64,000 nucleotides of DNA from Octopus sinensis (lineage: Eukaryota): NCBI RefSeq assembly GCF_006345805.1, contig NC_043025.1, positions 2,418,001-2,482,000 of the forward strand, written 5' to 3'. The notes under the pieces were generated by a model, which saw only the letters and a list, made by a program, of their open reading frames with translations, had not been told where the DNA came from and made no database searches. This document shows, one piece after another, positions 9,014 to 64,000 of this stretch. The first letter of the stretch is position 1, and each line of letters begins with the position of its first letter. The translations under genes were made by a program, and so were the position numbers.

Positions 9014-9162
9014 TATATATATATGTATACACGATTAGGTGTTGACATGAATGTGATATAGTATTTTCTACTGTATTCAGTCCCACTGCGTGTACTCTGG
9101 CTTACAGCACAACAAACTCGTGTATATTTGTTCAAGGTAACTAAAAGAAACCCATCGTATAC

Positions 9163-10323: not shown

Positions 10324-10363
<40 letters not shown>

Positions 10364-14480: not shown

Positions 14481-14539
14481 ACTGTACTGCAGGTGACCAT
14501 TGACAGTTCGTAGTGTTGTGCGAAGTTTGGCACTGAATA

Positions 14540-22578: not shown

Positions 22579-22650
22579 ATATCTCTATCATAATAGGATC
22601 ACAACCATCCAACAAGGATCCTTTCAAAATTTTCCAAGTTTGCACACATT
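22579..22650 (+). CDS. Single internal 72-nt coding exon encoding one typical-class leucine-rich repeat of a large multi-exon host gene
   Basis: Pyrimidine tract plus tttcag acceptor ends at 22578; gtaagt donor starts at 22651; length is exactly 72 nt. Frame a|TAT CTC TAT CAT AAT AGG ATC ... CAC ACA TT| reads YLYHNRITTIQQGSFQNFPSLHT(L), fitting (L)xLxxNxIxxIxxxxFxxLxxLxxL. Both introns are phase 2 and there is no stop codon. Confidence 0.88.
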
Positions 22651-23501: not shown

Positions 23502-23534
<33 letters not shown>

Positions 23535-23540
23535 GTATTA
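23350..23540. repeat. (GTT)n-(TTC)n-(ATT)n compound microsatellite
   Basis: Direct reading. Confidence 0.95.
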
Positions 23541-23767
23541 ACTAACGAAATACATTATAATCGAACCAAGTGACACTGAGTTTTTTGAGCAGAGTACTTT
23601 TTGAAATGTCAACTGATGAGAGACATTTGCAAAGAAAGATGCACCGCGGCCAATCGACCATTATCTCATCCATGAGGGGCCGATTGAAGACGGGTTGAAA
23701 CGGCAGTAGTGATTAATGTATCACGTAAAATCCATTTTCCATTTCCGTCATACGTGTGTGTGTGTAT

Positions 23768-23801
<34 letters not shown>

Positions 23802-23944
23802 TGCATTCGCTTTGGCGTTGGCATGGCTGTGTGATAAGAATGTTCCTTCTATATTCAGTCCTTATGCGTGTACTCTGGTCTCCAACCGAACAAACCTGTT
23901 TATGTTGGTTGATTGGGTACACGGTAACTGAAAGAAACCTTATG

Positions 23945-34449: not shown

Positions 34450-36860
34450 TTCAAGTTTTAATCAAATATTCAAATATTAAAGTGGAACGATTCATTCGAT
34501 CAGTCCCATTTGTCAACAAATTTGGAACGTTTTGACCATTTGAGAAATCCTAATGTAAAGCAAATAGCAATGTTTTGTTAATGTTATTCCTCAAACCTCG
34601 TAAATCTGAAGATGTGGAATAGCAAAGTCAATGTTCTGTTTAATAAGTTAGATATTTTCATCTTTCATAATTTAAGCGCGAATTGAATGAAATCTGAGAT
34701 AGATACCATGGACGTTCTGTTTAAGCTGCTACAGGCCAACATTTACAGGAATGATGAAGGGGTTGAAGTGTTTAGCACAGAGGTTAATACTGAAAACGAA
34801 CTGATGTTTAAGATCGAGGAGCAAAGGAATAGACGAGTGAGTCGGTAGTACCTGCTTGGTGGGGTCAAGAGCTCAGCCAACTCCTACAAGAATCTGTAGC
34901 ATGACAGTGACAGTGGCAAAACAAAGAGAAGAGATATCCTGCCTGCGAGATAGCTGTTAGAGTATGTCTGTTAGGGATAGAGTAAAATTTAGCCACGTCA
35001 CCCTTCTTTCGATGCAATCCCGGATGTGTATCACCCTTCCAGATGTAGAAAGATTTCTTCATTGTGTGTTTCACTTGAGCATTGTAAATGGTCTGAAGTT
35101 TTGGCTGCAAAGAGAAGGATTGGACTTTAAAATACCGTACTAGCTATGCAAAGGATCTACTTTCGCCAAGAAAGACCTTCACTGCTAATAATGCTCAATG
35201 AAGTGTAAGGTTTCAAGTAAGGTTGTGAGGGACACTTGTCTAATCTTCAGCCCATTACAAATGGCCGTGTTTCAACACCATGTCCACGGCTATGCTGTAT
35301 CCTTTCTCCGTCTCTAATGGCCTATTTCAATGGTAGTCTTAAACCACATATCTGTTCAAAACCGCCACCTAGTAATTTTAAGTGCCTTTAGTGAAGTCCA
35401 TATTGTCTTAAACATTCTTCAGTTGAAGAATACCATATTTTCTCCTTCCCTCTTGACTTGGTCATCCTGTGAATCGGTTTCAAGCCTGCTTTACTCCTAC
35501 TCGAAAGAAAATATGAAATCTGTCCTTATTCAACGGTATGAAAATATATATCCCCGTTCTTGGTGTATAAACAATTTAAACTTTATTCAAGACAATACTT
35601 TGGAAATATCGTAAGGCTAACGAAAGAACTGGAGACGAACTGGGAGTCCTTTGACACACAGAATCCGAAAATGATATCAATTTAATACGATCACATCAGA
35701 ATTTTAAGATACTGGATCCACAGAATGTCTTTGTTTTGTTTTTGAATAAACCAGCTTATGAAGAACGTACTAATATACATAGAAATTGCATTGTCTTCAA
35801 AACTAGGATTTTTTAAACTTCTACTGAAAAGCTAGCAAATATCTCTAAATTTCTACAGACAGTTTACTTTATTGTTCATGCCTATTTTTTCATGAATTTG
35901 TGTTTGAATGGTTTTCTTTAGTGCTGAACCTCAATAGCCCAGCATCGTAATTAATTTCAATCTGCCTTGATAAGAAGTGGATGTTGGATGATTTTCTCCA
36001 GCTGAACTAAAGTCTGTTCATTCACATTAAAATACCCTGGGACTAATGCTCGCTGCGGCCATTATTTCATTACCTGATGTTTACACCAGACCTTTAATAA
36101 AATAATCGATAAACCATAATAGACATTCGTACTACATTTCCCAATATATTTCCCCTTAAATATGAGGAAAATAGTGAAAATTGAGGGTTTGGGTATCTTG
36201 AAATCTAGACGTAATCCTAAAAAGTGGATTCCACATTTGAATTCAGCAAAATTATTTAACAGAGTGGTACTCTTCTATAACTTGTTGTTGTATATGAGTA
36301 TACCGTACGCGATAGAATAGGTAACAGCCTCTAAATATAGTGTTAGGTTTAGTGTTTGGGTATGCTCCATATGGATGAAACATTGCACTGGACCAAACAC
36401 GGATTGCACTTTGGCAAGGCATAGCACCCATACTTCATTCAATTTACGCATAGAGTTGAAGCCATAGGAAACAATATGACAGGCGTAGTCTTAGTTTGAA
36501 CTTCATTCATTCACCAACGGTAACATAGACATGATGCTCCATAGAGGAACCTCTGTCATGTCAGTGGACAGAACCGCCATGTTTCCAAACTGTATTACTA
36601 CTGACGTCTTCGGACCTATGAAACGTAGGTGTTATTAAGCTACCGAATTGCGTAAATAACTTATACTAAAATCAGTTCTTCATCTCGCATGGATAACCAA
36701 GGGGCACATTAAACTGTGGAACCTCTCACGGTGCAGCTTTCGGAAAACAATCTACAGACCTAAGCTGAAATCTCATCTGAAAGGGAGTGTCTCCAGGACC
36801 CCTGTTACAGTCCCCTTCAACTCCTTCATCTTGAGGAACAAATAAAAATCACAGGGCGGG
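34450..36860 (-). mobile_element. Probable very old L1-like LINE remnant
   Basis: Minus strand near 35070-35135 reads SNPSLCSQNFRPFTMLK, resembling the L1 RT motif ...CxxYRPISLLN; the remainder is too decayed to be sure. Confidence 0.4.
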
Positions 36861-41449: not shown

Positions 41450-42690
41450 TCTGTGAAGACCTTATCCATGCTGTATTAAAAGCACTGGTCACCTGGGAGT
41501 TTATACATAACCCCTTCGTTCATCTTTAAGCAGTCTGAACCTTTTGGTGAGAGGATCACTCTACATGTTCTTTCTTCTTGAATCACGTACCGCGTTTACA
41601 TCATCACTGACTCACATGGATCTTGCATAAGAGCTGTGGTGCCATTATCAAGGTGTAGTGGCCATGTTGCGAATTGTCTTCGATCTGTTATTGCTCTATT
41701 TTGGCTCAAAAGTGTAACCAGAGAGGAGAGTTCTTAATGGAGATCTGAATTACTGCCTCACGAGTTCCTCTTGGCAATATTGGCAGAACTTGCTCGGAGT
41801 TTCTACCAAAGAGCACAACTTTTCAACCGAAACCTTCATTGTTGCCAGTGATTTCTTTCAGAGCTTTGTCATGAGCAGGAAAAGCATACAGAGTGATCAT
41901 GGAAGCCTGATCTATAATAATCAAATACAAATTTCTCAAATTATTTCTGGTCAGAGCGAGGTGATACATTGCAAATTTTAGTTTCCAACAGAGAAACGGG
42001 CAATTTGAGCAAACTGTGCACCGTCCTTCCACCAGAGATCAATGTTGAAGATATGCCTCTGCACGCACCACTTGATAGTTTCTCCTTCGTAGATGTGAGA
42101 TCAGCGTATTAAATATGTAATTTTTGTCCCAACCTCCAGGAACCTCTGCATAGAAGCAGGAACATTCCAGCACCTCACCTCACCTTTTCTTATCAACTGT
42201 CTTCAATGACTGCATCAGCGATCACTCTCTGTTCATCGGTAACCGTTGCAATGCCGGGGTGGTTCATGACATGTTTATGCCCGACCCGTTACACTAGAAC
42301 TGGTTCAGACAAGCCAATATTAAGGCAGCTAATGCAATTTTCAATTTGCATAGAATTTATAGAGTGTAGAGTATGCATTAAAACTTCGCTGAGCATAATC
42401 TACCATCATGGTATTCTTGTGAGTGTTCCTCAGGCGAAGGACATTAGAAGGATTTGAATAGGTGCAAAGGACAACGAACGTGATACGCGGCTGAAATGCC
42501 ATCCGATATGCAGCACCTTTAGTATGGCATGTTCCAACATCACAAAATTTTGGAGAAGACCAAGCCATATGTACACATCTTTAAATATTGCACAGATTTC
42601 ACCTCCTACAGTGCTCACTTCTCAAAGCTCTTAGTACCTGGAACATCCAAAATAGCAATCGTAAATGAAATGTTTCTACGTCCTTAGGAC
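41450..42690 (-). mobile_element. Helitron Pif1-helicase remnant (same family as 13640-14480)
   Basis: LCTYSNPSNVLRL...MMVD linker, FYAEVPGG..K Walker-A remnant and LIIIDQASM...DKALKEITGNNEGFG. Confidence 0.8.
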
Positions 42691-43138
42691 TCACTGTGTT
42701 CATTCTGCTGCCGATGTTATTGTTTCTTCTCCCGAGTGTTCACGATCGATCTGTTTTTGAGTAGGTTACTGAGTGTTACCTATGTGAAAGCACAGTCTCT
42801 CACCGTCCTTATTACAACATTTACCATCAACATCGCCATCCTCCTCCCCCTCATCATCATCATCAACATCATCTCGGCCATTTTCTCCTTGTTGGTGTTG
42901 TTGTTGTTGTTATTGTTGTTGTTCTTAACATAACGAAATACATTATAATCGAACCGAGTGAAAACGAGTTTATTGAGCGAGGTGCTTTTTGAAACGTCAA
43001 CTGACGAGAAACATCTGCAAAGAAAGATGCACCGCGGCCAATCGACCATTATCTCATCCGTGAGTGGCCGATTGAAGACGGGTTGAAACGGCAGTAATGA
43101 TTAATGTATCACGTAGAATCCATTTTCCATTTCCGTCA

Positions 43139-43180
<42 letters not shown>

Positions 43181-43341
43181 TGTATGAGTGTGTGAGTATA
43201 CGCTTCGACGTTGGTATGGTTGTGTGAAAACAATTTTGCTTCCGTATTCTGTCCCTCTGCGTGTACTCTGGTCTTCAGCCGAACAATCCCGTGTATGTTA
43301 GTTAATTGGATACAGGGTAACTTAGAAACATGTCGTATATA

Positions 43342-43462
43342 TACGAAGTGGTATCATAAAGTTCCCGGCCGAGTTATGTTTAATAAAAGTAACTTATACT
43401 ACCTGAGTTTTAACTTCATTTCCTTCGGAAAAGTCGACTTGCGAAATAAGACACAAATATGA
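43342..43462 (-). mobile_element. Mariner terminal fragment (paralog of 9163-9260)
   Basis: tacgaagtggtatcataaagttccc...gagttatgtttaataaaa matches 9163-9250. Confidence 0.7.
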
Positions 43463-46929: not shown

Positions 46930-48260
46930 CCTAAGCGTGACCTAGACAATTTCGAGCAACATCTTGAACATCAAATTTAAAGCTAGAAAAATAACAATCA
47001 AACCTCACCTAACTAAAATCAATAATATCCTCAAGAGTCTTCAAAAATACTCTGAAATTCTCTTCCAAGCCGTCAAGCCCGGCAACCTTTATAATGCTCC
47101 TCTAGATAAATACCGAGAGCTAATACACAAATAACTACATAAATGATACCGTATGGTACCAGTCTCCGTTCTAAGAGACATTTACATCAAGAATCGTGAT
47201 CTCGTTTTTAAACGCGCATTAGAAGATAGGACCGGACGTTCCTTAACTCGCTCACTCCATATTAACGTAGAAGACCATAAAATAAAATATGCCGAGAACC
47301 CTTTCGTTCGCCTCATTTGCCCCTTCAGTTCAGATATAGGTAAGATTAGCAAGATTTCATCAGACAGGATTATACCCCCAACTACACCCATGGACTGAAT
47401 TTACTCAAGCCGTCCAGTCGTTTAATTCCTAAAGCCCTAAACATACTTTTCAATTCATCCAGATCGACATAGACCAAATTACTCTAGTGTATCCTTCTCA
47501 ACAAAGTCCTCATTTTTGCAATGATACAATCTATCTTCTCTTGTGACGATATTGATATCATCTTGGCCGCCCGTCGACATTTGATAAAACTGGGTAATTC
47601 TAGGCCAATAGAGACATTCGGGATTCTCGCAACTGCGGAATCGAACAGATTAGAAAAAGACTAAGATATCTTTTTAAAACGGTGGGCCTCTGCATCACTT
47701 TTTGTAGCAGCCTTAAAACTTCGAATTTCCTAGATGTCACCCTAGATCTACAAAGTCAAATTTTCAACCCATGCCATAAACTTAAGGGGAACCTCCACTA
47801 TGTCAGCTTTTCCTCCATCCACAACGCCAGTTGTCCTAAACTCTATCGTAGATATCGTATCAAAACGGATTTCATCACTGTCCGCCAGTAAGGAAATATT
47901 CGAACAATACGCTGAATATTATAATAGCGTGACGGTCATAAGAATTCGATCGAATATAACCTTGTGTAGAACAAGCCTCCCTCAACTAACCTTGGAACCA
48001 AGAATACACCCGTCCTCCAGATGAAACAAAAAATATCATGCATAACCCATCGTCCTACTAATCTCCCAAATTTTAAAGTAGTATATGATCTAACAAGCAA
48101 TCTCCCCACTCGGTGACTCTGGACACTAACCCTGTCTCTGCCCGCCGATATCAACACCCGTATGCCCTTTCAAAACTCTTTAGTTACTCGGATAAACCTA
48201 TCAATCGGAATAAGATAACAAGAACACGTGAAGTTATCTGGTTTCGGTTCTCTAAAACAT
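46930..48260 (+). mobile_element. Penelope-like RT remnant (second family)
   Basis: RLICPFSSDIGKISK, NFLDVTLDL..FNP.HK...LHYV...S.H, ISSLSASKEIFE..A.YY and REVIWF; heavily frameshifted. Confidence 0.7.
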
Positions 48261-48262: not shown

Positions 48263-49745
48263 TTTTTTTTCCCAACAGAAAAAAAACGAGGTATTGAACC
48301 TCTCACTACAATTTTTACAATTCTTGGACTTAATAGTCCATAACAAATAATAACATACAATAATATACAATAAAATATTCAATATACAATCAACACTAGT
48401 CCATTTACAAATGAGGCACTGAGCTTCTTACACATTATAAAACTGGGGCTTTTCAACCTCTTGTCAATCCTCATTATCGCTTGTGTACGTCCACTTCACC
48501 ATATCCCCTGCGATATTCCTCCTTTAGTCCCCCCCAGCCTATGTAACATGCGCAACGTTATGAACTCCACAGCTATCTGCGGAGGCCATTCGGGTTACCG
48601 TGCGAAGGCCAAAGGTACTCCCTTGTAGTGTTCTACCACCATCTTTTCCACCACTCCCCTCTATAACAGAAGGCCAGCAGGTCTTCTTCCTCCGGGTCCG
48701 AGATAGTAAATTCTATCGTTGGCGGCACAATTCTTACCGATTGTGTCTAACCCAACCCTCACCGATGGGGCATCATGTCTCCGACTGTCGGCAATATCCT
48801 GTTTCTCCTCTTCTTTTTTCTACCTGACTGTGGGAGGGTGCGTCCCCTCCGTGACCGGGACATATGCTTCCCTTCCCTCATTCCCAGAATCCTTCGGTGA
48901 GCACCCATTATTACTCACCTTCTTCCTTTTGCAGCTCTTCTTTGAGGCATCCTCTGTCTCCTCGGCCGCCTTCATTCCTTCTTCTACAGAGGTCTCCGTC
49001 AACCGCTCCAGGATTTTGCTTTGCCGTTGAGGACAGTTCTTTTTTATATGGACAGGCTCCAAGCACCGATGACACTTGGGGGAGGGGGACTCCCTCAAGC
49101 ATCACCGGATACTTCGACCCGCCTATTCTTAAGAAGTCTGGAAATACCAGACTTTCGGCTGACAGGATCTAGAGGGTCAAAACAGCTTTTGACCCCTTCA
49201 AGTCAGCCGTAGGCAGAATTTTTAGGAAGAGAAAAAAGTCTAAACAAAAAGGAAGAAGAAAAAATTAACAGTTCAATAAAGAGTCTTTTTTTTAAATAAA
49301 AAAGGGGTGAAGAGAGAGCAGCAGTTCAAAATACAGCAAAGGCCACTCGGTACTCCAGGCCAAAGTTTTAACGCAAATCATTCCAATTTTCTTCTCATAG
49401 GTAATCCTTAACAGGAACAATATTGTTGAAATCTTTTCTAAAAATTCGCAGAGTTATTCCTGGACAAATATTATTCTCAAACAAAATTTTGCGGCAGGAT
49501 ACGCCCACCAAAACAATAATTTTCACAGTTAAGTGAAAAAATATTCACTCAGCTACAGGTAGACTAGAATCGAGTGAGGACTTCTTGTTTGCAAAAAATA
49601 ATTGCGGCAGACAACATGCCCCCACTAGACCCCCAAAAAGTCTTACCTTACAACTGAATTTCAAATCTCTTCAATTTAAGACGGCTTCAAAAACACGTCT
49701 TGAGTCTTTACTGCTTCAGTATCAAACACAACTCCGATTAGCACA
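48263..49745 (-). mobile_element. ORF1-only zinc-knuckle retroelement, internally deleted
   Basis: CHRCLEPVHIKKNC in ORF 48820-49098; ~550 bp of 3' sequence ending in a T8 run on +; lacks the equivalent of ~250-730 of copy 1. Confidence 0.65.
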
Positions 49746-49794
49746 TGCATAATGAGGTAAGCAAGCTACTTACCACACAGCCACTCCTGCACAC

Positions 49795-50925
49795 GTTCTG
49801 GTGATGATTTTCAATATTTTTTTTTCACCTCAACGTTTGAAATGATGGCAGGAATCTCTTTAAAAATTGTGTGAATATTTTGATTTTTTTCATATCCCCA
49901 ATCCCAATCGGTAACGATTTGGGCTAATGCATTTGAATAACGCTTTAACAAAAGTTTTAAATGAAAAATTTTAGAAATCGGTGATCACCATTATAATCCA
50001 CACTTTCTTTTCAAACAAAATGTGAAAAGTAATTTGAAAACAATGGCGACATTTTAAAATTTTGTTCATTAACCTCGCATATTCCCATAACGATGTTATT
50101 TTCCCAGCAGCTTTTGCATTTTTTGTCCAATTTTAATGAAAATCGATGAGTGAGCAAGCCTCATGGCAGTGAGTTGATTTCAGTATATGACGTTGAGAAA
50201 AAAATTGGTAATTGCGCCGGAGCAGTGGTTTTATAAAATCAATAGACGTTGTAATTTTGGCCGTAAATTTCATATATTTTATCTGATTTTAATGAAATAT
50301 GAAGTGTAGGTAAATGTTTGGTGGGGGATACGGAAAATGTATTTATTTACTTCAAAAGAGCTTGAAAAGGGCATAAATGTACGTAAGCATTTCCATACAG
50401 ACATTCTTAACGATTTTGTAGAAATTTTACATGTGATTACAGTTCATGTCCATTAGTTTAAACCAGCATTAAGAGTTGACAAAAATCGATAACTGCGAGT
50501 GAGAGGGAGATTTCAAAAAAACAATGGGCTTTTTGTATGCAATTACCCATAGGATTAGTATTTTATGCTGTAACTTTTACACAATTCAACCGATTTTGAT
50601 GGACTTTGACTTTTAGGTAAGGTTTATGGCCGGAGTCATGTAGTAGAATTAAAATTAAAATGATGAAAGGCAGAAATCGTCATAATCATTCACAATAAAA
50701 TAATGAACTGATTCTGAAGAAAATTGACCAGTGTGTAAAATTAAGCACTTCGACATATAAAACGTCGATTATTTATACAATGTATTGAGATTTAAATGTC
50801 AATGGAATATTTTCATGTAAATGGTCAAATGGGCTCAATTTTATGACATAACCTTACCATATTTGTTCGTATTTCGCTGAGAGTGGACACACTGATCAAT
50901 TTTGTACCGAGAGTGACATTAAGGG
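49795..50925. mobile_element. Unclassified interspersed repeat, copy C
   Basis: Near-identical to 1297-2326 and extends further to the shared right end. Confidence 0.6.
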
Positions 50926-51159
50926 AAAAGAATTAAACAGACATCACTCAATGTGTCCACGAACACCCAAACGTTTCACTGCGATTTCAGACGGTCCAGT
51001 ATGGAGGAGTATGTCCAAAGCGTTAAGCGGGTAAAATTCCTGCCGAATCAGATATAACATCATAATTGGTAACAGTTGGTAGAGGGAATGTAGAAGATTT
51101 CAATACAAAGCCAGATGTGGGTTTAACTTCAACACGGAAAACACGAGCAATATATATAT

Positions 51160-51420
51160 GGAGGCACAAGTTCTAGTGGTTAGAGCAGCAGTCTCACGCT
51201 CGAGGAATAGCGGGTTCGAATCTCAGATTATGCGATGTTTGTTTATGAGCTGAACACCTCAGCTCCACGCGGCTCCGGCGTAAGGTAATGGTGAACCTCT
51301 GCTGACTCTTTCTCCATCACATACTCTCACTCTTTCCTCCTGCTTCTCGCAGCTCACCGGCAAAGGTGCGGCGTTCCGTCCCTTATGAGACAGGCATAGC
51401 TCGAGAATGAACAAACAACA
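51160..51420 (+). mobile_element. tRNA-derived SINE
   Basis: A box ctagtggttagagc and B box gggttcgaatc; ends in an (AAC)-rich tail flanked by TA repeats. Confidence 0.7.
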
Positions 51421-51904
51421 ATATATATATACTATTTATTAATTTAATGGACACAGTACATGACTTTAAGTTCAGTTTCATAAGTGGAGGGATATCTCAA
51501 ACATATACACCAGGCACAAACAACATATCATTACGAACTAAAGAAAAATGAATAAGAGAAGAAACTTGAGAAAACTGAGAATACAGCATATAGAAAATGT
51601 AGTAAGTTAAAACAAAAGAAAATGAAAACACACAAATCTAAAAATTAAAAAGTAGAAAAGGTGAAAGTGTAATCCTCCTTAGGCCTTAAATTAAAGGGCT
51701 AGAAAGATTACAAAATGTTAATAAAGAATAGGTAGCGAACTTAGTAGCTTTGCTTGTGTCCTTATGTCGGAAGGAGGCTACGTGTTTAGCATACCGATTT
51801 TTAAAATTATACTTTTTATTTACGTATGTATGTGTATATAAGTATGTATGTATGTATGTATGTATGTCTGTCGCTGTCTCTCTTGCTCTATCTATCTATC
51901 TCTC

Positions 51905-53580
51905 CGACGTTTTGGCGGCGAGGTTGGCCCTCGACCAACACTTCGACGACAAACACGAAGGGTGTGTTGTCAGAGCTAGGATACGTGCTCTACTGAACGA
52001 AGGTGTTAGAGCCGCGAGGGAAGCCCGTCTGGCAGAGGCGCAACTGGGCAACAAAGCCACAATTCTTTCTCTGGTAGATGAACAGTGGGGCGAATTGCTC
52101 GAGCCAAATAAAATGTGTGTGGACTTCCAACAGCATTTTGCCCGACTGTTCGGGAGGAGTGGCGGGTATGATTGTATGGTGGACTTCAGTGCCTACCTAC
52201 ACAGCTTACCACGACTCTCGACAAAAGTGGCAGGGTGCAGAACCCGATGGCAGAATGCTCGAGGGACATGACTAGTTTGGAGACGTCTTGGCAGCGGAGT
52301 ACTGCAACTGGCAGAAAAACGGGAGCATTCCTGGTTTTGTGATTCGAGGAGACGTAACACTGCAGAAGAAAGATCTAAACAAGGGGAATGTAATAGATAA
52401 CTTTAGGCCCATCACTCTGCTTAATGCAGACTTGAAAATGTTGGCCAAGGTGTTAGCGAAGAGGTTGGCGCTTGTCATCGAGAAACTGGTCGACAAGGCG
52501 CAAACGGGCGCCGTGCCGGGCCGGAGCATCCATGACGACCGCCACCTGATCCGCTACATCATAGACAGGGAAGTTAACGAACCTGGCACGGGTGGGGCGC
52601 AGATCAATTTGGATCAATCGAAAGCTTTCGATAGGGTAGACCATCGATACTTGGAGGCTGTCCTCAGAGCGGCTGGTTTCGCTCCCGTCTTCCGCAGCTG
52701 GATAGCCGCTATGTACACAGGCATCCGTACGGTAATTCGCGTAAATGGACTTCTATAGAGACCTTTCGACATTGCACGTTATGTCCGTCAGGGATGCCCC
52801 CTCTCGTCGCTTCCGTAGGCATTGACTCTCGAGCCATTATTACGGAAGCTGCCAACTATGAGGGTCATCCCACGAGAATTGGGATTCGTGACGAGCGTGT
52901 CTGCATACGTCATAGTGTCTAGCCACGAGCACATAGAGCATGTCGGCGAGACACTGAAAGACGACGAAGCGGTGACAGGAGCGAAAATCAACCGGGAAAA
53001 ATCAGTGGGCTTGCAACTCGGCACCTGGAGAAGCAAGCCCATGCAGTCCACCAGCGCCTCCGTCGTGGGACGCTGGACCGACGGTCCGTTCGAGTTTCTC
53101 AGGGTCTGGTTTGGTGCGGACCTCCAGTGGAGAAGAAATGGAACGAGATATTGAGTAGGGTGGTCACTGTCGCCCGGCAATGGGCCGAGAGGAAACTGTC
53201 CCTAAAAGGTCGGGCGGAGGTGGCGAACTCGTACATCACGTACGTCATCTACTACCGCCTGACCGTCGTACCTTGTCCCGCATTCTCTTTCGTTTCTTGT
53301 GGAAAGGATGCGTCCCGATGGTCAGGCGATACATTTGCTGTCAACACCCGTTAAAATAAGGACTGGGCATGCCGTGGTTGATGATGCGCAGATACGCTCT
53401 GAGATTACGATATCTCAGGCTCTACGTAGACGACGGTGAACAGGTGTGGTCGCCGTTTGTGAGGCACGCTTTCCCGCAACTCGTCTCCATGACCGAACTG
53501 CAGTCGTGGATCAAAAAGAGGCCGAGAAAGCACGAATGGCACCGCGAGTTTCGCGTTGCTGTCAAGCAACTATGCCGTCC
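51905..53580 (+). mobile_element. Tx1/L1-clade LINE reverse transcriptase fragment (pseudogenised)
   Basis: NFRPITLLNADLKMLAKVLAKRL, LDQSKAFDRVDH, VRQGCPLS, GAKINREKS and LSLKGRA; the YADD motif is reduced to SAYV; frameshifts present. Confidence 0.9.
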
Positions 53581-53692
53581 CTATCTATCAATAATTAACA
53601 ATAACAGGGTAATAAAAAGCTTAGAATTTTTACTACCAGTCGCCTAACGTGTAAAAAAATTGTCAATAGCCTATATATTAATTATATAAATG

Positions 53693-54032
53693 CAGCGTAC
53701 ATTTAAACACATAAGACGTATTCGTCTTATGTGTTTAAACACATTTAAACATATCTAAACACATAAGAGGTATCACATAAGAGGCGTTGTTGGATTGCCT
53801 CATACTTATATGTTTTAATCTAGGCGTACCTGCTGATGAGGACTTCGCCTAGCAAATAATTTTATTTGCTAAAAAAATGTCTGAATCCGTTGTCTAGGAG
53901 ATAGAGTTAAGTGTTTTATAATTTTCATTCCCTTCGATGATTATCCCTAATTGCGGTTTGGATTTTAGCTGTTCCTTCTGGCGTGCAGGAAATCCTATGA
54001 CGGGTACATCTTATGTGTTCAAATGTACACTG
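53693..54032. mobile_element. MITE with ~34-bp TIRs (Tc1/mariner-like ends)
   Basis: Left cagcgtacatttaaacacataagacgtattcgtc versus right gacgggtacatcttatgtgttcaaatgtacactg followed by TA. Confidence 0.75.
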
Positions 54033-54046
54033 TATTTATATCTAAC

Positions 54047-54104
<58 letters not shown>

Positions 54105-54105
54105 C

Positions 54106-54178
<73 letters not shown>

Positions 54179-54542
54179 CACATGTATATACATAGTTGAA
54201 GTTTACAGAAAAATAAAAGAACACAGATATATGAAAAAGGTGTGTATTAGTTTGACACTCCGAAAAGTGTGAAAGGGCTTTACGTTTCGAGCCTACGATC
54301 TTCAAAAGTAAAGGAAATGAGGAAATCACAGAAGTTCAAAAAGGATTAAATGTATTCAGTTTATCTTTGATGTTACAAAGGGTTTTGCTGACCTCTCAGT
54401 CAACTGCGCACCACGCATAATAATATATATATAGGTGTGTCTGTGTGTGTGCCATTATGTCTGCGTGCGTGGATGTAAGAATGAGTGCGTATTTTTGTGC
54501 GTTATTGTGTGTATACCTATGTGCATAAGAATTATATGCATA

Positions 54543-54587
<45 letters not shown>

Positions 54588-54634
54588 TAGCTGAAGGTGA
54601 CCCGCTCTACGCGCGGGTAAGAGTGTGGTTGTTA

Positions 54635-54968
54635 CATTCTGTTGCTTCCTTTCAGCACGTAAAAAGCACCATCCGAACGTGGCCGATTGTAGCGCCGCCT
54701 TGACTTGCTTTTGTGCCGGTGGCACGTAAAAAGCACCAACCGATCGTTGCCGCTGCGAGCCCCCCTGGCACCTGTGCCGGCGGCACGAAAAAAGTACCCA
54801 CTACACTCACAGAGTGGTTGGCGTTAGGAAGGTCATCCACCTGTAGAAACACTGCCAGATCAGACTGGAGCCTGGTGCAGCCCCCTGGCGTCCCAGACCC
54901 CGGTCACACCGTCCAACCCGTGCTAGCACGGGAAACGGACGTTAAACGATGATGATGATGATGATGAT
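54635..54968 (+). mobile_element. LINE/SINE 3'-end fragment with ~60-67-bp units and (GAT)n tail (RTE-like)
   Basis: Repeated tgtgccggtggcacgtaaaaagcacc; ends gacgttaaac(gat)n. Same family as 55940-56593. Confidence 0.6.
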
Positions 54969-55269
54969 TCTCCCTCTTTGTTTCTCTCTCCTTTTCTCTC
55001 TTACTTTCCCACTCTCTTACTTTTCTTTTCTCTCGGACTCTCCCTCGCTTTCTCTTACTCTGTATCTTTATCTATCTCTCTCCCATTTATAAACAACAAA
55101 AGATCTTTCAAAATTTGTAATTCTGACAAAAAATGGATACGAATTTCATCATATCAAGCAGCGAGTCAGAATTCGAAGGATTTTCCACTGAAGACCTTGA
55201 TTAATCTAACTCTATGACTGAAAAAAAAAAGCAGGTGGTATTTGATAATGAATCTGATGTTTCATTTTC

Positions 55270-55610
55270 CGAAAGTGAAAACAGTGAATCCGAGAGCTCC
55301 GACAGCGATAAAGAAAATGAATTGGCACCTGAATGGAGTGAAAATTGAAAAACTGTTCCTTTCGGTGATTTTTCTGAAGAAACTGGACCAAGCCACAGAC
55401 TTTCCCAGGAGAGTAAAGCCTTAGACTATTTCTTACTCTTTCGAATGAGCCTATTTGAAATCATTACGGCGGAAACGAACCGTTACGCTAAATGTAAACA
55501 AAGCGAAAGAAAGGATGGTTAGTGGTTTCCCACAACCTTAAATGAAATTAAGACTATTTTGCCATAAATATTATTATGGGTATCAGAAAGTTACCCAGAA
55601 TAAGAAAATC
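55270..55610 (+). pseudogene. piggyBac-type (PGBD4-like) transposase N-terminal fragment
   Basis: Acidic N-terminus followed by FSEETGP...ALDYFLLF / LFEIITAETNRYA / WFPTTLNEIK / IIMGIRKLP across frameshifts. Confidence 0.7.
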
Positions 55611-55939
55611 TATCGTAAAATTTTGTTGTATACCCAATTGAATATTAGCTAATAACCCATTTTCTATAGCGATGTTTGAACAAAATTTTAATAATTTTAT
55701 ATTTTGTTGAATTTACCTGTATCTACCTGCAATTAGTGTCACTTTGTGACAAAAATTATAGTATAGAATTGGTTGAGAACATTTCATTAAATTATCTTCC
55801 AAAAATCAGATTAATATATTGATAAATAAAAAAGTTATAGTTGTTTAATGAAACCAGACTAAATTTATGATTATGTTAGAAATTAATTGAAACACATAAG
55901 GGGTGTATTTTGGTCAGTAATATAGTAACGAAAGAGTTC

Positions 55940-56593
55940 ATAGGTGTGCATATTTTCAGCTGAACCGACCGACCACATAATGCACAGGGGCCTCACTGAG
56001 GCAATGGCGAAGGACCGAGATCTCAAGAGATATGCTGTGACTGCAAAAACCCGGGCTGCTTCCTGCACCAGTTCCGCATAGCCCCTGCCCATTCAAAGTA
56101 CCTTGGATTCCAGAACACCCCGCTGTGCTTGAGGAGACCTGTTGAGTCAAGTACATGAACATGAACATCGAAATAAATATCAATGGAAATAGTAGTTGTG
56201 ATACCTGTGCCGGTGGCACATAAAAAGCACCATCCGAACGTGGCCGATGCCAGCGCCGCCTCGACTGGCTTCTGTGCCGGTGGCACATAAAAAGCACCAT
56301 CCGAACGTGACCGATGCCAGCATCGCGCTGGCTGGCTTCCGTGCCGGTGGCACGTTAAAACCACCAACCGATCGTGGCCGATGCCAGCCCCCCCCCACCC
56401 TGGTACCTGTGCAGGTGGCACGTAAAAAGCACCCACTACACTCGCGGAGTGGTTGGCGTTAGGAAGGGCATCCAGCCGTAGAAACACTGCCAGATCAGAC
56501 TGGAGCCTGGTGCAGCCCATGGCTTCCCACACCCCGGTCAAACCGTCCAACCCGTGCTAACGCGGAAAAGGGACGTTAAACGATGATGATGAT
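55940..56593 (+). mobile_element. LINE 3'-end fragment with four ~67-bp tandem units and (GAT)n tail
   Basis: Units start at 56206, 56273, 56340 and 56408; same tail as 54810-54968. Confidence 0.65.
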
Positions 56594-57099
56594 ATATCTC
56601 TTATTATAAAAGGCAGATTTTATCTGCCTACCTTTGTCTCTTATAGAAATCTACAATATAGGATTTCTTCAATTACAATTTACCTAGCATTTTTAAGAGT
56701 AGAATAAATCGGGTCGTGCCAGGTCCAGTTTTTCAAATTTCAACCCCAATTATGCAAAACTTAGAGAAAACTCACATTGTGGTGTGTAAGTCAAGTGCTT
56801 TTCTTAGTGTGAGCTACAACACACGCACACACACACACACAAAAACGGAGCGATCTGATTCACTGACGCTATCACCCTAATTTCTCCTCCATTCTCTTTG
56901 CAAGTGTGCAACGATTAAAGTGAAAGCTCTTTCACTCTGCATTCCCACTTCCTCTTTACACACATAGACACGCAAATATATAAATAAAATTGTAAGCTAA
57001 CATGTGTGTGTGTGCGTGTGTGTGAGTGTGTGTGTGTGAGTGTGTGTGTGTGTGAGGGTGCGTCTGTGTGTGTGTGTGCGTGTGTGTGAGTGTGTGACA

Positions 57100-57570
57100 G
57101 GAAAGTTTTTTAGGACGAATATAAGAGCTAAAGTATATCCAAGTAGCAGAAAGATCGCCCAAAAGTGTATATAGATATTTAAATGTATTTATATATTCAT
57201 CTATACACACATGTATGTATAATGTATGTGTATATATTTCCATAGAGGTAACCATTCACTCCGCACAAAGTTTTTTTAGGACGAAAATAACATCTAAAGT
57301 TATCTCTAAGTAGCAGTCGCCCAAAAGTGTATATAGACACACACATGTATGTATAATGTGTGTGTATATATTTCCATAGAGGTAACCATTCACTCCATAC
57401 AAAGTTATTTAGGACGAATTGGACGAATATAAGATCTAAAGTCAATCCAAAAGTGTATATAGATATTTAAATGTATTTATATATTCATCTATACACACAT
57501 GTATGTATAATGTGTTTGTATATATTTCCATAGAGGTAACCATTCACTCCGCACAAAGTTTTTTAGGACG
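57100..57570 (+). repeat. Minisatellite-like tandem array (three ~135-155-bp units), probably inside a Helitron starting at 56597
   Basis: ccatagaggtaaccattcactcc recurs at ~57240, ~57374 and ~57528; upstream A|TCTCTTATTATAAAA at 56597 looks like a Helitron 5' end. Confidence 0.7.
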
Positions 57571-57578
57571 GACGAAAA

Positions 57579-58425
57579 TCTTTATATATAAAAGAAAGGT
57601 TGTGTGTCTGTCTACTCCGATTTAGATTCCTAACTACTCCCACATTTTGCGATGCAGTTTAACCAAAACCGAGTATCTTATAGTCGTGATTCATATCGAG
57701 CCCTTCTGGGTATTAGCGCACGTCTACGATGAGTCTACGATTTTACAAATAATTTACCATCATTTTCTCCCATTTTAATGCATATTTTTTTAAATAAAGG
57801 GAAGTAACTATCAAACTTCACACCAATATGCGTGCTCATATGCGACGTAATATCACATCAGCAGCATTTCCTCACACCCTCCTTGCACTTGGCGAAGGCA
57901 AAATACCAGGGGATGAAAATGGTAATATTGCCATCGATTCCATTTGTACCATTGTTAAGACGCCTTCTGATCTCAGAGATGCAGTGTTCCAAGATCTACA
58001 AGCTAATTATCAGAATATGGATTGGATTGGCCAAAAGGCTATACTGGCCCCGAGGAATAAAACTGTTCACCATATTAATGATGAAACGCTAAAACTCATT
58101 CCTGGGGAAGTCTATGTATATCAGTCTATCAATACAACTCCTGACCCAGAGGACGTCATCAACTATCCAATAGAGGTACTCAATTCCTTTGAGCACCCCG
58201 GACTAACACAACACATTCTCAAACTTAAAGTCGGTGCCCCTATAATGCTCATCAGAAATTTGGCTCCCCCAAAACAATGCAATGGCACACGTTTGATCGT
58301 TAAGTCTTTATCTCCCAGCCTAAACTTATATCAATATTTGCCTGAATAATCATCATAATTCAGTGCAATCATTAACAGTACTTTCAAGCAATTCAGCCCC
58401 GAGCAACGCCGGGTAATTCTGCTAG
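57579..58425 (+). mobile_element. Non-autonomous Helitron carrying a Pif1-helicase fragment
   Basis: 5' A|TCTTTATATATAAAA; ORF 57828-58349 (AILAPRN...LKLKVGAPIMLIRNL...CNGTRLIV); hairpin cccg-agcaacgc-cggg followed by CTAG|T at 58422-58425. Confidence 0.88.
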
Positions 58426-59589
58426 TATATATATGTGTGTGTGTGGGTGTGCACGCATTATATATACAAATTATATATATATATATATGTATAAATTAAA
58501 TTAGAGATAAAACCACTAATAGGCAAAACAAAAAAAAACATAAAAAGAAAAATATAATATAGAAAATATATAAAATTAAAAATTTAAATTATTTAAATTT
58601 AAAATAAAAATTATTAAATTATATTTATAATTTGTTTAAAAATATATATAACTATCAAAAAGTATTAAAAAGTGTAATATACATAAATACAGATATATAC
58701 ACTTTGTATATATACATTATATATACATATTTACATATCGAACACACACACACACGCACACATATATAAATGAACGCAATGAATATCTGATTCATAATAT
58801 TTGTTCTCATGATTGTGTGGCGTTTGTAGCGATGATAATTCTCCCTATGAATGCCGACAGATACATCAAAGAAACCCGTCTGACGATCTTATAAAGGGAA
58901 AATGAAAGGGAGTTGAGGGCAATACGTTAAATAACGGGAGTGGACATTGTCAACGTTATGAATGAAGGGGAGTAAGAGAGGGAAAGGAGGAAATAGCGTG
59001 AGTGACGAAGATGGCCCCTAGCAACCACACCTTTTAAGATAGGGATTTCTAAGGTAGCCCACGAGCATCGTCACCTCATTCTACATGTCCCTGTACATTT
59101 TGGAGCGAATCGGACGGGTCGTAGTGGCATTGAAAGCGATCCAAGCGGTAAAAACGCATTTCAGTTTTATATATAGAGAAGATATATATAAATGAATCAG
59201 ATAAAAGTCCAAGGCTTTGAAAGATTTCACAACATTTATAGAGAGGTCTTTCAGCTGCTCCAGGGATATTTTGTATATTCTTTCATCGAAGACGGTATGC
59301 GAAAATGGTTAAGCAATAGTTATTCTAGAATACCTATAGCTTAACCATCTTCTCGCAACGTCTCCGATAAAGAGATACATAAATATCCCGGAAACAGCTG
59401 TAACTTCTTCTCTTTAGAAATGTTCTTAAATGTTTCACAGCCTTGCATTTTTATTTCCTTCTGTAATTTTATACATATAGATGTAAAAATATGACCTACG
59501 TTGGACTCCTCATTTGCATGTCCATAACACTTACTCAGCTTTAACTGACACATTTGGGTCTCTTTGACAACATTACCTCACAATTATCC

Positions 59590-59620
<31 letters not shown>

Positions 59621-59787
59621 GTAGCAGTAGTTGTAGTAACTGAAAAGAGGAAATTTGAAAATATTTGAAAATATATTTTTTCTTAGAAAGAAATTTTGTC
59701 CATGTTGTGTTTGATGAAATTCACGAGTGAATGACTTTACAAGTGGTTAAATAAAGGGCGGTTATTGGTTGTCGTTATTCATGTTAA

Positions 59788-60030
59788 TCAAGGTCATACT
59801 CGTTTGTCCAATATAGTGGTGACTCCAACCCGAGCAGGTTATTACATGAATTAGGTTCTCAGATGCACAAGTGAAACTAGTTTTAATTGTGAACCTCTGT
59901 CCTTGTTTGAAAAGGAAGTCCGAGCCTTCAAGCAGGTTGGGGCAGGTTCCACAGTTTGGGCGTCCACATTTTTCCACCGTTGGTTTTTTGGTTGCTTTGT
60001 AAAGCTTCGCGTTTGTTAGTAGTCTGGATC
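59788..60030 (-). mobile_element. Penelope GIY-YIG fragment (duplicate of ~12497-12735)
   Basis: CGRPNCGTC...LIHVITCSGWSHHYIGQT. Confidence 0.8.
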
Positions 60031-60959
60031 CCATCAGACACATCGATAAAGTTGTGTGTGACTAAAGATTTCGAGTGTCATCTGGCATGTTGTTATATCG
60101 CCATCTAGTTGGGGAACGAATAAAATACAAATAAGACTGCAGACATGCAAAAGATTCAAATATGAACGAGGAAGTCTTGTGTTCCTCTTTAGATAAAGTG
60201 ACCTAATGAGCTTTCGCTTTCATAACTGCTTAGAGGGAAAATAAAGTAGTAGAAGAGAAAGATGAAAGAAAATCGGGAGGAGAGGAAAACGAATACTCAG
60301 TCAAAAATAAATGTAATTAGTGGAGATCTTATTCCTTGTCTCTCTGCAGTGGAGATATTATTCCTTGTCAGTCATGCATACCTCAGTTCATCACTTTGAG
60401 ATGCTCTGGTTTTTTCGTAGTGCACAGTCTGTTCCTTTCTTGGTATGCTTCCCTTTCTGCAGCTGCCTCTCTTTCCCTGGACAGAGACATTCTTTTGGCT
60501 TTACCTTGACATTGTAGAAAAATTTGACACCTTCCTTCTAGGCATGGTTATACAGAAATACACGGGCGTAGAAGATAGTAAACAATGAAAATAACTGGGT
60601 AACGAAAATTATATTTCTTAATACGACGAGCAGAACATTAACAAGGTAGTTTTCCGGAGAATAAAGAATTGTACGGGTTGAAGCGAAATTTGTCACTTAG
60701 TGAACCAAAGTGCCAGTATCGAAGGAACCAGAAAAAAGCCATTAACAACAGACAAACAAAAAACCGGCGCAAAAGTAAATAAGAAATTTTTAGGGAAATT
60801 AACTATGTGCGTGGGTTTAAGTGAAATGTTTGAAGTTACTCCTGTCAGTAAATTATGAACTTACATTTATCAGTAATTCCTTCAACAACAACAAAAAGAA
60901 AACACAAAACGTTGCAAAATTAAATAAGAAATTTACCGAAGTGTACGGATTGAAGTGGA

Positions 60960-61790
60960 ATTTATGAAGTTAAAGCCTCCGGGAAAATCAGCAGAGAAAA
61001 GAAAGATTCCAGCATCTCACCTCAACCTTTTCTTTCCAATGTCTTTAATGACTGCATCAGCGATCCCTTTCTGCTCGTTGGTAAGGGTTGCAATGCGTGG
61101 GTGCTTCATGTCATCTTTCTGCTCAACCCGTTACATTCCAATTGGTTCAAGCAAGCTAATATTAAACCAGCTGGTGCCATTTTCAATTAACACAGAATTT
61201 ATGGAGTGTAGAGTCTGCATTCAGCCCTCGGTGAGCATAATCTTCCATCATAGAATTCTTGTCAGTATTCCACAGGCGAAGAAAATTGGAAGGATTTGAA
61301 TAGGTGCAGAGGACAGCAAACGTAATACGCAACTGAAATGGCATCCGATACGCAGTAGCTTCAAGTATAGTATGCTCCAAACCCTCATCTTTTTGGAGGA
61401 GACCAACTCATATGTACGCATCTTTAAATGTTGCATAGATTTCACCTCCTACAGTGCTCACTTCTCAAAGCGCTTAGCACCTGGAACATCCGAAATAGCA
61501 ATTGTAAATAAATTTTTTTTACGTCCTTAGGGTTTTCAGGGTGCAGTTATTTCATTGCAAGGGGAAAAATTGTAGCGCCTTATATAAACCGTTCTTTTGA
61601 AACGTATTTCACACTTTCGTAATTGTACATTTTCACTCCTGGCACTTCCAATCTCTTGTTGTTCAATTAAGTGCATGTTCCCATATAACTCAGCGTAAGG
61701 ATTTACTTGTTGCACATGACACCCAATCTTTGAGAAGAGCTTTGGGAGTTCTGACTTGCTTCCACTCTGTGATGCATTAATAATATACAA
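60960..61790 (-). mobile_element. Helitron remnant (duplicate of 13640-14480)
   Basis: MPFQLRITFAVLCTYSNPSNFLRLW and QQVNPYAELY. Confidence 0.75.
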
Positions 61791-61849
61791 CTGACTGTAC
61801 TGCAGGTGACCATTGACAGTTCGTAGTGTTGTGCAATGTTTGGCCCTGA

Positions 61850-63518
61850 ATACGTTCTATATCCTGGTATTGGATATATAATTTAACGAAGCTATTTACA
61901 CGACGCAATACGATTACTATTACATGAGACTCGACGCTCTCTGCGAACGGATCATAGGGAAATGCTTACCAATCAATTGTTCAAAATCAATTGCTTACGA
62001 CTAGACAGTTCTCCATGTAATGGAAATGTGTCAGACCACTTTTAGTCACTTGTAATATTGTCAGAATCTTTCCACAGCATATCCCCTTTATAGAATTAGT
62101 CTCCCCTAAATTCCACTTGAGAATTAATGTCATAAATTCCAATTCAATCCGTACATTTCGGTAACTTTCTTATTTAATTTTGCAACGTTTTGTGTTTTCT
62201 TTTTGTTGTTGTTGAAGGAATTACTGTTATCTATTATTCGTTTCGTTTTCTGGTGCTAGAACGTGTAATTACAAATTGTTTCTGTGTTGGTACCTCAAAT
62301 GTGTCGTACAATACATTCATGAGAAATTCACTTCTTTTGTCTGATTTTTCCTTGAATCAGGTTATAAGTTGGTTAATAAGTCTTTTATGTTCGATATTTG
62401 TTTTTACCTTTTACCAGGAATATCATTCTTGCAATTTATAAAACAATTGTACCATCCTCCCAGCCTTGTTTAATATATGTATAGGTCTTTAATAAAGTTT
62501 GTCAGCTAACTTGAAGAATTTTGAAGTATTATTCCTTTTTTTTATATTTTCACTCGGTATCGGCTGATCAAAGATGGATCTGATTATTCTAACAAACATC
62601 AAATATCTTTGTAACCAGAGATGTCTGCTTTCTACATTTATGCACTTCAGACCGTGTTGAAAAACATTCCCCAACAACGAAGTGACATGAAACCTTAAGT
62701 GATTTTGGCCACGGGTGCCATTTCGTGACGGGTGTATTTGGAGCTAGAGAACAGCGTATTGCATACTATCACTATATCTTCAATGTTACAGTCCGTTGTC
62801 TAGCAGTTTCGCTAGATATTTATTTCTTTTACTCATATACTGATAATAACGGACGATGATCTGTCTGTATTCAAAAACTTCTGCCGTGTAAAAATCTATG
62901 CAATTTTTTATGGCAAAAATAATTACAAGAGCCTCTTTTTTGATTTGGCTGTAATATTTTCTGCTGATATCATGAACCACCGCCTTCATGCTACCATCTT
63001 TTTATTTATGTAGCATTTCTGCGCCGATTGAGTATTCAGAGGCATCTGAAGTTACAACATTCTCCGCTACAGAATCGAAGCGTGCTAACAACAAATCAGA
63101 TGTTAATATTTTAAAATTTCGTCGAATTCCCTTTGACAATTTTCAGAGCAATTTCAATTGACATTTTTTAAATACATAATCTACTGTAACACTTACCCTA
63201 TGCATATTTAGAATATAATTTTGGTAATAATTTGCTTGTCTCCAAAGCAATTATGTAACGTCGTTATATTGCCTCTGCCTTCAACGGATCTGGTCCTCGT
63301 CCATTTCTTTCAAGTGTTTGTCCAATTCACGCTTTCTTTTTCAACGTAATCCCTAATTTTTTCGAACATATATATTACTTGCTCTACATGTTGATCCCGT
63401 GATTCGCTTTTAATAAGTATATCATCCATATATGGAAATGCAAATTCACTATCCGCTAACACTGCATCCATAAGCTGTTGAAAAATCGGTGTGACATTAA
63501 AGACATATACTAACCTGT

Positions 63519-63556
<38 letters not shown>

Positions 63557-64000
63557 CGTTAATTTTTAGGTATTTATAGCATTCATCGTCTACGTTAATA
63601 TGTAGGTATGCCACCGTCTAATTTTGCAAATATATCCCCCAGGGTAGGTAGCTGATAGTGGAACGTTTTATGATACTCATTTAAACCAGTGGAAAAATCA
63701 GCATACACTCTGATTTTGTTTATTTGTTTCTAACGCTGCAAAAGCTTATCTGTTCCAACGATGCAAAAGTTACAGATCGCTTATATTTAAATACCGGTTT
63801 GGCATTTACTTTTACTTGGAACTTCGTTTTCGTTTTGATGCTGAGATCTAATTTATCAGAGAGAACTTCAGGAAAAATCTTTTAAAATTATTTTTACAAA
63901 TCGTCCGCCGATTCATTTGTATTGGCAAGAAAATCATTCACATTTTTACTGAAAAGATTTATGGGGAGTTCCCATAAGTTAAACAATTCTATTCCGTGTT
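61850..64000 (-). mobile_element. Gypsy remnant (duplicate of 14540-17075)
   Basis: Colinear with copy 1; RNase H YSQIKKEALVIIFAIK; lacks the equivalent of ~15432-15879. Confidence 0.85.

What the first reader, a model, noticed from the sequence alone, without database searches (positions are those of the whole stretch)
48972..64000. Recent ~47-49 kb-period tandem segmental duplication predicts another LRR exon just outside the window
Seen: 1-17075 and 48972-64000 share the order and junctions of many unrelated TE remnants (offset 48,971 at the start, 46,925 at the end). There are frequent substitutions (by eye roughly 90-95% identity) and reciprocal indels. Inference: this is a true duplication whose unit probably spans the LRR exon. 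If colinearity continues, a paralogous exon should lie near coordinate ~69,500, and possibly another one period upstream.
Basis: partly seen in the sequence, partly recalled or inferred. Interest (0 to 1): 0.75.

Follow-up and report, generated by a model that had tools for sequence, protein, structure and literature searches.

The report
Octopus tandem duplication carrying LRR exon
A roughly 48,000-base stretch of transposon-filled octopus DNA, in which only one tiny protein-repeat exon was found, has been copied repeatedly; this probably adds or removes single repeats in a receptor-like protein, a known process seen here at an unusually large scale.

Summary
The duplication is real. Copies A (1-17075) and B (48972-64000) are colinear at 95.6% identity over 7,217 unmasked aligned bases. 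Only 45% of A and 52% of B align; kilobase deletions and a small inversion account for the rest. The one full period visible holds a single detectable host exon, a 72-nt phase-2/2 LRR exon (22579-22650), so the unit looks like a piece of a gene, not a whole gene.

Two findings are new. (1) The exon's two flanks recur, joined without the exon, at 42798-43329 (about 92% identical): an older copy that lost it. (2) Eight of ten Octopus vulgaris gene models listed on a 21.16-Mb scaffold match four places in the 17-49 kb spacer. One of them also carries a 21/24-identical version of the exon. So the spacer and the exon belong to a multi-copy array.

The exon predicted at about 69,500 could not be checked (about 55% likely). 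Whether successive exons are spliced into one protein is untested; orphan, decaying exons are the main rival. The mechanism is a known one (symmetric LRR exon duplication). Its scale is unusual: 48 kb per 72-nt exon.

The parts
1..2969 (+). Copy A, left block (runs off the window start); lacks 2,887 bp present in B and has 478 bp absent from B
2970..10954 (.). A-only interval. B lacks 2970-8133 (junction on a 3-base TGT microhomology) and 8208-10954, but keeps 8134-8207 and an inverted 4072-4236, so B's ancestor had this DNA
10955..17075 (+). Copy A, right block; visible homology stops only because copy B reaches the window end
48972..54353 (+). Copy B, left block, including B-only 50827-53713 (end of a repeat shared with 31826-33007, plus a LINE remnant with an RVT_1 match)
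54351..54584 (.). Deletion-inversion scar in B: 74 bp equal to A 8134-8207, then 165 bp equal to the reverse of A 4072-4236
54585..58749 (.). B-only interval with Helitron material (Pif1 2B domain at 57798-58349; hairpin plus CTAG ends near 54590 on the minus strand and 58424 on the plus strand)
   Evidence: Helitron end pattern from own knowledge
58750..64000 (+). Copy B, right block (runs off the window end)
22579..22650 (+). Single 72-nt LRR exon, phase 2 at both ends, one 24-residue repeat; the only LRR-like stretch in the window
   Evidence: Pfam LRR_8 E=0.00077, below the curated cut-off; profile score 51.2 against next best -6.3 and null best -11.7
22385..22474 (+). Left flank of the exon, paralogous to 42798-42890
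   Evidence: 92.5% over 93 columns
23511..23938 (+). Right flank of the exon (unique sequence, TG repeat, SINE remnant), paralogous to 42898-43329
   Evidence: 191/208 identical in the unique part, 106/129 in the SINE part
42798..43454 (+). Older, exon-less copy of the exon module: both flanks joined, with about 0.9-1.0 kb including the exon missing
9028..10046 (+). Still older copy of the SINE-remnant/mariner-like junction also seen at 23808-24713 and 43197-43454; the three SINE remnants share two alignment gaps (about 15 and 21 nt) absent from four other SINE copies
   Evidence: SINE and mariner labels from own knowledge
19109..19156 (+). Spacer segment matched 16/16 by O. vulgaris model P0070; AG/GT-bounded and probably a false exon call inside a retrotransposon remnant
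35921..36007 (+). Spacer segment matched by three different O. vulgaris models (22, 24 and 26 of 29 residues)
41954..42109 (+). Spacer segment matched 46/52 by P0158; another Helitron copy in the window matches only 46%
47462..47565 (+). Spacer segment matched 29/36 by P0152, P0157 and P0159

Best explanation
The window lies in the introns of an octopus gene for an extracellular-type LRR protein, in a region that forms a multi-copy tandem array with a period of about 48 kb. Step 1 (shown): A and B are direct copies that differ by 4.4%. Step 2 (shown indirectly): the DNA between them, exon included, also exists in further diverged copies. Step 3 (inferred): copies arise by unequal crossing-over between misaligned units or shared transposon remnants. 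Because the exon is 72 nt and phase 2 at both ends, each gain or loss of a unit adds or removes one 24-residue repeat without shifting the frame. Step 4 (shown): copies then erode through kilobase deletions, some on short microhomologies, and one older copy lost its exon. Step 5 (inferred, untested): surviving exons are spliced into one transcript, so repeat number and ligand-facing residues vary by exon birth and death.
For: Colinear blocks at 95.6%. One LRR exon in a full period. All 37 tblastn hits of 19 named mollusc LRR proteins fall on it. None of 235 plus-strand frames of 45-119 aa reaches a Pfam cut-off (two weak hits below cut-off). Exon-less paralog of both flanks at 42.8 kb, local scores 156 and 348 against next best 70 and 33 in the window. 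Eight of ten O. vulgaris models listed with a 21,161,123-base contig match four spacer sites, all on the exon's strand; 0 of 2 models from other contigs match, and there are 0 hits on the reversed window. Pooled identity is 184/215, which simulation equates to about 6.5% nucleotide divergence, against 60-67% identity expected at the 16-20% divergence of unrelated repeat copies here. P0070 has two consecutive 24-residue LRRs, 13/24 alike, the second 21/24 identical to the window exon through three one-base changes. Precedent for 72-bp phase-2 LRR exons that duplicate and shuffle: PMC11378527; for 90-bp ones: PMC6564038.
Against: No transcript evidence. No longer protein with near-identical repeats was found (4 candidates, none significant, which the tool calls weak evidence), and P0070 ends at the exon. 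Three residue changes are what neutral drift gives at 4.5% (mode 2; 47% chance of 3 or more), so this pair shows no purifying selection; one change hits a core hydrophobic position (position role from own knowledge). The extra LRR of P0070 and the ORF shared by the ten models are both absent from the window, so units differ and P0070 may come from another species or array branch. The matched spacer sites look like transposon remnants, and the other-contig control is only two proteins. Short exons (frames under 45 aa) and exons without a Pfam family would have been missed. The unit breakpoint was not found.
Confidence: 0.52

Rival explanations
1. The array is real but its LRR exons are orphans: a gene fragment was swept into an expanding, transposon-rich segmental duplication and is decaying without adding repeats to any protein.
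For: Neutral-looking 3/24 residue difference; an exon lost in the 42.8-kb copy; only 1 of 10 same-contig models includes LRRs; no full-length protein found.
Against: Frame and both splice sites are intact, though at 4.5% divergence a stop is expected only 14% of the time, so this is weak. P0070 has two in-frame repeats that are 13/24 alike yet both fit the repeat pattern. Gene finders often miss 72-nt exons in very long introns (own knowledge).
Confidence: 0.28
2. A and B are two haplotypes of one locus that the assembly placed in tandem.
For: No reads could be examined. Kilobase indels occur between alleles in repeat-rich molluscs (own knowledge). Transversions outnumber transitions (174 vs 145), unlike the four older repeat comparisons in the same call.
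Against: 4.4% is 3.6 times the 1.22% heterozygosity reported for O. vulgaris, whose assembly went through purge_dups (PMC10700109; I do not know that the window comes from it). The window has no N gap. Three distinct versions of the 35.9-kb segment, all unlike the window's, exceed two haplotypes. An 8%-diverged internal paralog shows the locus does duplicate.
Confidence: 0.08
3. The recent A/B duplication covers only an intronic block that ends between 17075 and 22579, with an unduplicated spacer; the exon is not part of it.
For: In the window, A/B homology is seen only to 17075 and no breakpoint was located.
Against: Copies of 19.1, 22.6, 35.9, 42.0 and 47.5 kb exist elsewhere at a similar divergence, and P0070 links 19.1 kb to the exon.
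Confidence: 0.08
4. Each unit is a whole small gene, so this is ordinary tandem gene duplication.
For: Tandem gene clusters are reported in octopus (PMC6408891). Short exons could have been missed.
Against: One full period shows one phase-2/2 internal exon and no other detectable exon; an internal exon cannot be a gene alone.
Confidence: 0.04

Closest known systems
Brown-algal ROCO genes with shuffling LRR exons (PMC11378527; passages read)
   Same: 72-bp phase-2 exons, one LRR each, gained by intragenic tandem duplication. The paper also cites phase-2 LRR exons in vertebrate gonadotrophin receptors.
   Different: There, many exons per gene, alternative splicing and diversifying selection are shown and the LRRs join a ROC-COR domain. 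Here one exon per period of about 48 kb; no partner domain, splicing or selection is shown.
[quoted passage not shown]
   Same: Phase-2 single-repeat exons amplified by unequal crossing-over in transposon-rich regions, with exon gains and losses.
   Different: 90-bp exons and introns of a few hundred bases, thousands of genes, and a specific REP retrotransposon link. Here a 72-nt exon, a unit more than 100 times longer and a mixture of old transposon remnants.
Mytilus LRR proteins named slit-like, LRRC15-like or peroxidasin-like (P0003, P0006, P0053, P0064 and relatives)
   Same: Closest named repeats outside octopus: 24-residue spacing, best 16-17 of 24 identical.
   Different: Only one repeat can be compared; orthology, domain architecture and exon structure were not established. 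The names are the sources' own labels.
Octopus LRR-bearing adhesion GPCR expansion (PMC6408891; passages read)
   Same: Octopus-specific and tandemly clustered; 5 of 22 members carry LRRs.
   Different: No GPS or 7TM exon in the window. The paper describes whole-gene duplicates, not intragenic units. A lead only.

Membership tests
Segmental duplication | At least 1 kb at 90% identity or more (usual definition, from own knowledge) | tested here: met
   7,217 unmasked columns at 95.6%
Segmental duplication | Not a single transposon family: homology crosses junctions of unrelated repeats | tested here: met
   Continuous 1.6- and 2.3-kb blocks and nine colinear blocks; repeat labels partly Pfam, partly recalled
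Segmental duplication | Both copies present on one chromosome (read depth, spanning reads) | not testable with these tools
   No reads available; indirect support from multi-version O. vulgaris models
Head-to-tail tandem array | Spacer between copies is itself part of the repeat unit | tested here: inconclusive
   Five spacer sites have close copies elsewhere, but their order and the breakpoint are not known
Symmetric LRR exon-duplication systems (ROCO, Tetrahymena, gonadotrophin receptors) | One LRR per exon, length a multiple of 3, phase 2 at both ends | tested here: met
   72 nt, AG/GTAAGT, reading frame offset 1
Symmetric LRR exon-duplication systems (ROCO, Tetrahymena, gonadotrophin receptors) | Several such exons in series in one gene | tested here: inconclusive
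   One in the window; two consecutive repeats in predicted model P0070, not transcript-verified
Symmetric LRR exon-duplication systems (ROCO, Tetrahymena, gonadotrophin receptors) | Exon copy-number gain and loss among paralogous modules | tested here: met
   Exon-less module at 42798-43329 and a second exon version in P0070; the direction of change at 42.8 kb is inferred
Symmetric LRR exon-duplication systems (ROCO, Tetrahymena, gonadotrophin receptors) | Diversifying selection on concave-face residues | tested here: inconclusive
   Three residue changes, within neutral expectation; no DNA for the paralog, so no synonymous rate
Symmetric LRR exon-duplication systems (ROCO, Tetrahymena, gonadotrophin receptors) | Expression and (alternative) splicing of the exons | not testable with these tools
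   No transcript data
LRR-bearing GPCRs (LGR type or adhesion type) | 7TM domain, plus GPS motif for the adhesion type, in the same gene | tested here: inconclusive
   None in the plus-strand frames scanned, but the gene extends beyond the window

The most novel reading that the evidence does not exclude
Octopus has a very large (possibly hundreds of kilobases or more) unannotated LRR receptor gene whose ectodomain grows and shrinks one repeat at a time through roughly 48-kb segmental duplications, nine or more units on one small chromosome, with exon birth, death and perhaps alternative splicing giving a variable recognition repertoire (immune or neuronal) that current gene models miss.
Probability: 0.2. 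Interest if true: 0.75.

Novelty: new member of a known kind. Interest (0 to 1): 0.4.

Why it matters
If the exons are spliced, this is LRR exon shuffling in a cephalopod with about 48 kb copied per 72 coding bases (0.15%), caught with both gains and a loss. It also flags a mis-annotated array: the public models there join a repeat-derived ORF to what look like false exons, and one carries a kinase name although its listed Pfam domains are LRR only. If the exons are orphans, it is an ordinary transposon-rich segmental duplication.

Tried and rejected
Older whole-unit duplication at about 30 kb. The matches 1298-2327/31829-32884 (84%) and 13660-14216/42130-42686 (81%) first looked colinear. I set them aside as independent repeat copies, because their flanks do not align and SINE order differs around the first.

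Second or decayed LRR exon in the window: none, by motif scan, local alignment or a 45-repeat profile allowing stops. One non-LRR 72-nt and one 69-nt AG/GT candidate were dropped because they did not score.

Full-length protein: a search among longer proteins gave nothing significant. The ESM Atlas gave only generic LRR clusters.

One search counted 10 distinct versions of the shared ORF. That window reached one residue into the next exon, so I use 9, from the alignment.

Not used: genome contigs (bacteria and archaea only), structure and complex prediction (one repeat is uninformative). The viral and metagenome collections stayed unchecked.

Literature: searches listed no paper on this locus or on intragenic LRR duplication in octopus, judged from listings only. 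The library lacks most subscription papers. I read no supplements; the GPCR tables of PMC6408891 may bear on gene identity.
Full report
1. Observation. Self-comparison confirms two direct copies, A (1-17075) and B (48972-64000), with offsets 48,971 at the start and 46,925 at the end. Global alignment gives 319 differences in 7,217 unmasked columns (95.6%, K2P 0.046; 145 transitions, 174 transversions). Including microsatellites and the inverted piece, 7,752 bases align: 45% of A and 52% of B. Indels go both ways. B lacks A 2970-8133 at a junction with a three-base microhomology. It then carries A 8134-8207 and an inverted A 4072-4236, which comes from inside the missing stretch, so B's ancestor had it. 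A lacks B 50827-53713. Divergence varies from 12 to 41 per 500 columns (chi2 36.7, df 13); the highest bin is near the poorly aligned 16.7-kb region and I did not resolve the cause.

2. Organism and setting. The DNA is 38% GC, rich in microsatellites and has no N. Pfam supports Helitron remnants (PIF1, Helitron_like_N, Pif1_2B), reverse transcriptases at 37.8 and 52.3 kb and a zinc knuckle at 43.7 kb (21 frames scanned). The SINE, mariner, Penelope and Gypsy labels used below are recalled, not from a call. Close matches to O. vulgaris gene models (below) place the window in Octopus; whether it is O. vulgaris itself is not known. PMC13282606 (passages) equates a distance of 0.09 from consensus with 25 million years; on that scale A and B split roughly 6 million years ago. 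This is a rough inference.

3. The exon. There is one LRR exon, 22579-22650, 72 nt, with AG acceptor, GTAAGT donor and phase 2 at both ends. It matches Pfam LRR_8 below the curated cut-off (E=0.00077). A profile of 45 mollusc repeats, built without it, scores it 51.2; the next best site scores -6.3 and the best on the reversed window -11.7. All 37 tblastn hits of 19 named mollusc LRR proteins fall on it. I scanned 235 of the 296 plus-strand frames of 40-119 aa starting in 1-48971 (those of 45 aa or more). Two weak hits fell below cut-off and I treat them as chance. Shorter frames, and exons with no Pfam family, were not covered. Since a full period is visible and shows one internal exon, the unit is most likely sub-genic (inference).

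4. The exon's left flank (22385-22474) and right flank (23511-23938) recur, adjacent, at 42798-43329: 92.5% for the left piece, 191/208 for the unique right piece, 106/129 for the SINE part. About 0.9-1.0 kb including the exon is missing there. Loss is more economical than gain, but no outgroup was available. The SINE remnants at 9.0, 23.8 and 43.2 kb share two alignment gaps absent from four other copies (3 of 7 aligned), and each is followed by related mariner-like sequence. A SINE subfamily cannot be excluded without genome-wide counts.

5. Evidence from outside the window. Searching with the exon's 36-residue frame gave 358 proteins at E<=0.001, of which 150 were listed. The closest single repeat is in P0070 (21/24; next best 17/24), a named O. 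vulgaris model. P0070 also matches 19109-19156 at 16/16 and has a second LRR just before the matching one; that second LRR is absent from the window. The three differences each need one base change: at least 3 of 72 (4.2%), close to the A/B value. Twelve of 22 candidates passed, all O. vulgaris. Ten list one contig of 21,161,123 bases (I infer the same scaffold) and share an asparagine-rich ORF, absent from the window, in nine versions. Eight of these ten end in stretches that match the window at 19.1, 35.9, 42.0 or 47.5 kb, all on the exon's strand. None of the two from other contigs does, and the reversed window gives no hits. Pooled identity is 184/215 (three identical 47.5-kb matches counted once), which simulation puts near 6.5% nucleotide divergence. 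The 35.9-kb stretch occurs in three versions, all unlike the window's. So the spacer and the exon are multi-copy. Limits: these are predicted models, the matched stretches look like transposon remnants, their order on the scaffold was not seen, and a longer protein with these repeats was not found. The nearest named non-octopus repeats are in Mytilus LRR proteins.

6. Mechanism. Shown: recent direct duplication, later deletions and an inversion, an exon-less older module, further copies of the spacer and exon. Inferred: unequal crossing-over as the copying step, frame-preserving gain or loss of one repeat per unit, and splicing of successive exons. The P0070 comparison gives no sign of purifying selection, which keeps the orphan-exon rival alive at about 0.28. 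The haplotype artefact is unlikely (about 0.08): divergence is 3.6 times the 1.22% heterozygosity reported in PMC10700109 (passages), and more than two versions exist. It cannot be closed without reads.

7. The prediction. 22579 + 46,925 is about 69,500, but the offset moves by 5 kb across the window, B lacks 55% of A's visible bases, and one copy has lost the exon. My estimate for an exon within about 64-75 kb is 55%. If there were only two copies, the paralog would lie downstream or upstream depending on the unseen breakpoint.

8. Comparison and novelty. It works like the phase-2 LRR exon arrays of brown-algal ROCO genes (72 bp; PMC11378527, passages) and Tetrahymena (90 bp; PMC6564038, passages). 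Exon geometry and gain/loss are met; multi-exon transcripts and selection are not shown, and no gene family can be assigned. Octopus LRR-bearing adhesion GPCRs (PMC6408891, passages) are a lead only. Seven literature searches (listings only) showed no paper on this locus. Verdict: real, a new member of a known kind, interest 0.4; 0.75 if a spliced, variable giant LRR gene is shown (probability about 0.2).

Noticed in passing
27728-30186 (-): Large fragmented Helitron Rep-helicase remnant (PIF1 E=5e-45, Helitron_like_N), ending near a 160-bp piece (30651-30811) also found at 47763-47926.
   Followed up: partly
46488-46923 and 49757-49790: A SINE-like element appears split by about 2.8 kb of later insertions; its last 32 bases resume at 49757, and the same tail precedes the repeat at about 1260-1293 in copy A.
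   Followed up: partly
1298-2327, 31826-33007, 49793-50951: A 1.1-1.2 kb non-coding repeat with internal ~305-bp periodicity; the 31.8-kb copy is 84% identical and starts at the same position. Family not identified.
   Followed up: partly
54655-54959 and 56205-56593: A second SINE-like family with a 67-bp internal tandem unit (3.4 copies at 56205-56433), two copies 86% alike inside the B-only interval.
   Followed up: no
11358-11693 and 20858-21312: Long inverted-repeat elements (MITE-like); the first is shared by A and B.
   Followed up: no
60868-60973 / 62124-62229: A 106-bp inverted duplicate (94%) in B; the copy near 62.2 kb replaces a short stretch of A near 14.85 kb.
   Followed up: no
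17383-18199: Nested short direct duplications (562- and 94-bp spacing, about 80% identity) inside the retrotransposon-like remnant.
   Followed up: no
P0070, P0151-P0161 (O. vulgaris models): Twelve public gene models share an asparagine-rich ORF that looks retrotransposon-derived (own judgement) and join it to different false-looking exons; P0070 carries a kinase name but only LRR Pfam domains.
   Followed up: partly
A/B alignment: Transversions exceed transitions (174 vs 145), unlike the four older repeat comparisons, where transitions lead slightly; unexplained.
   Followed up: partly
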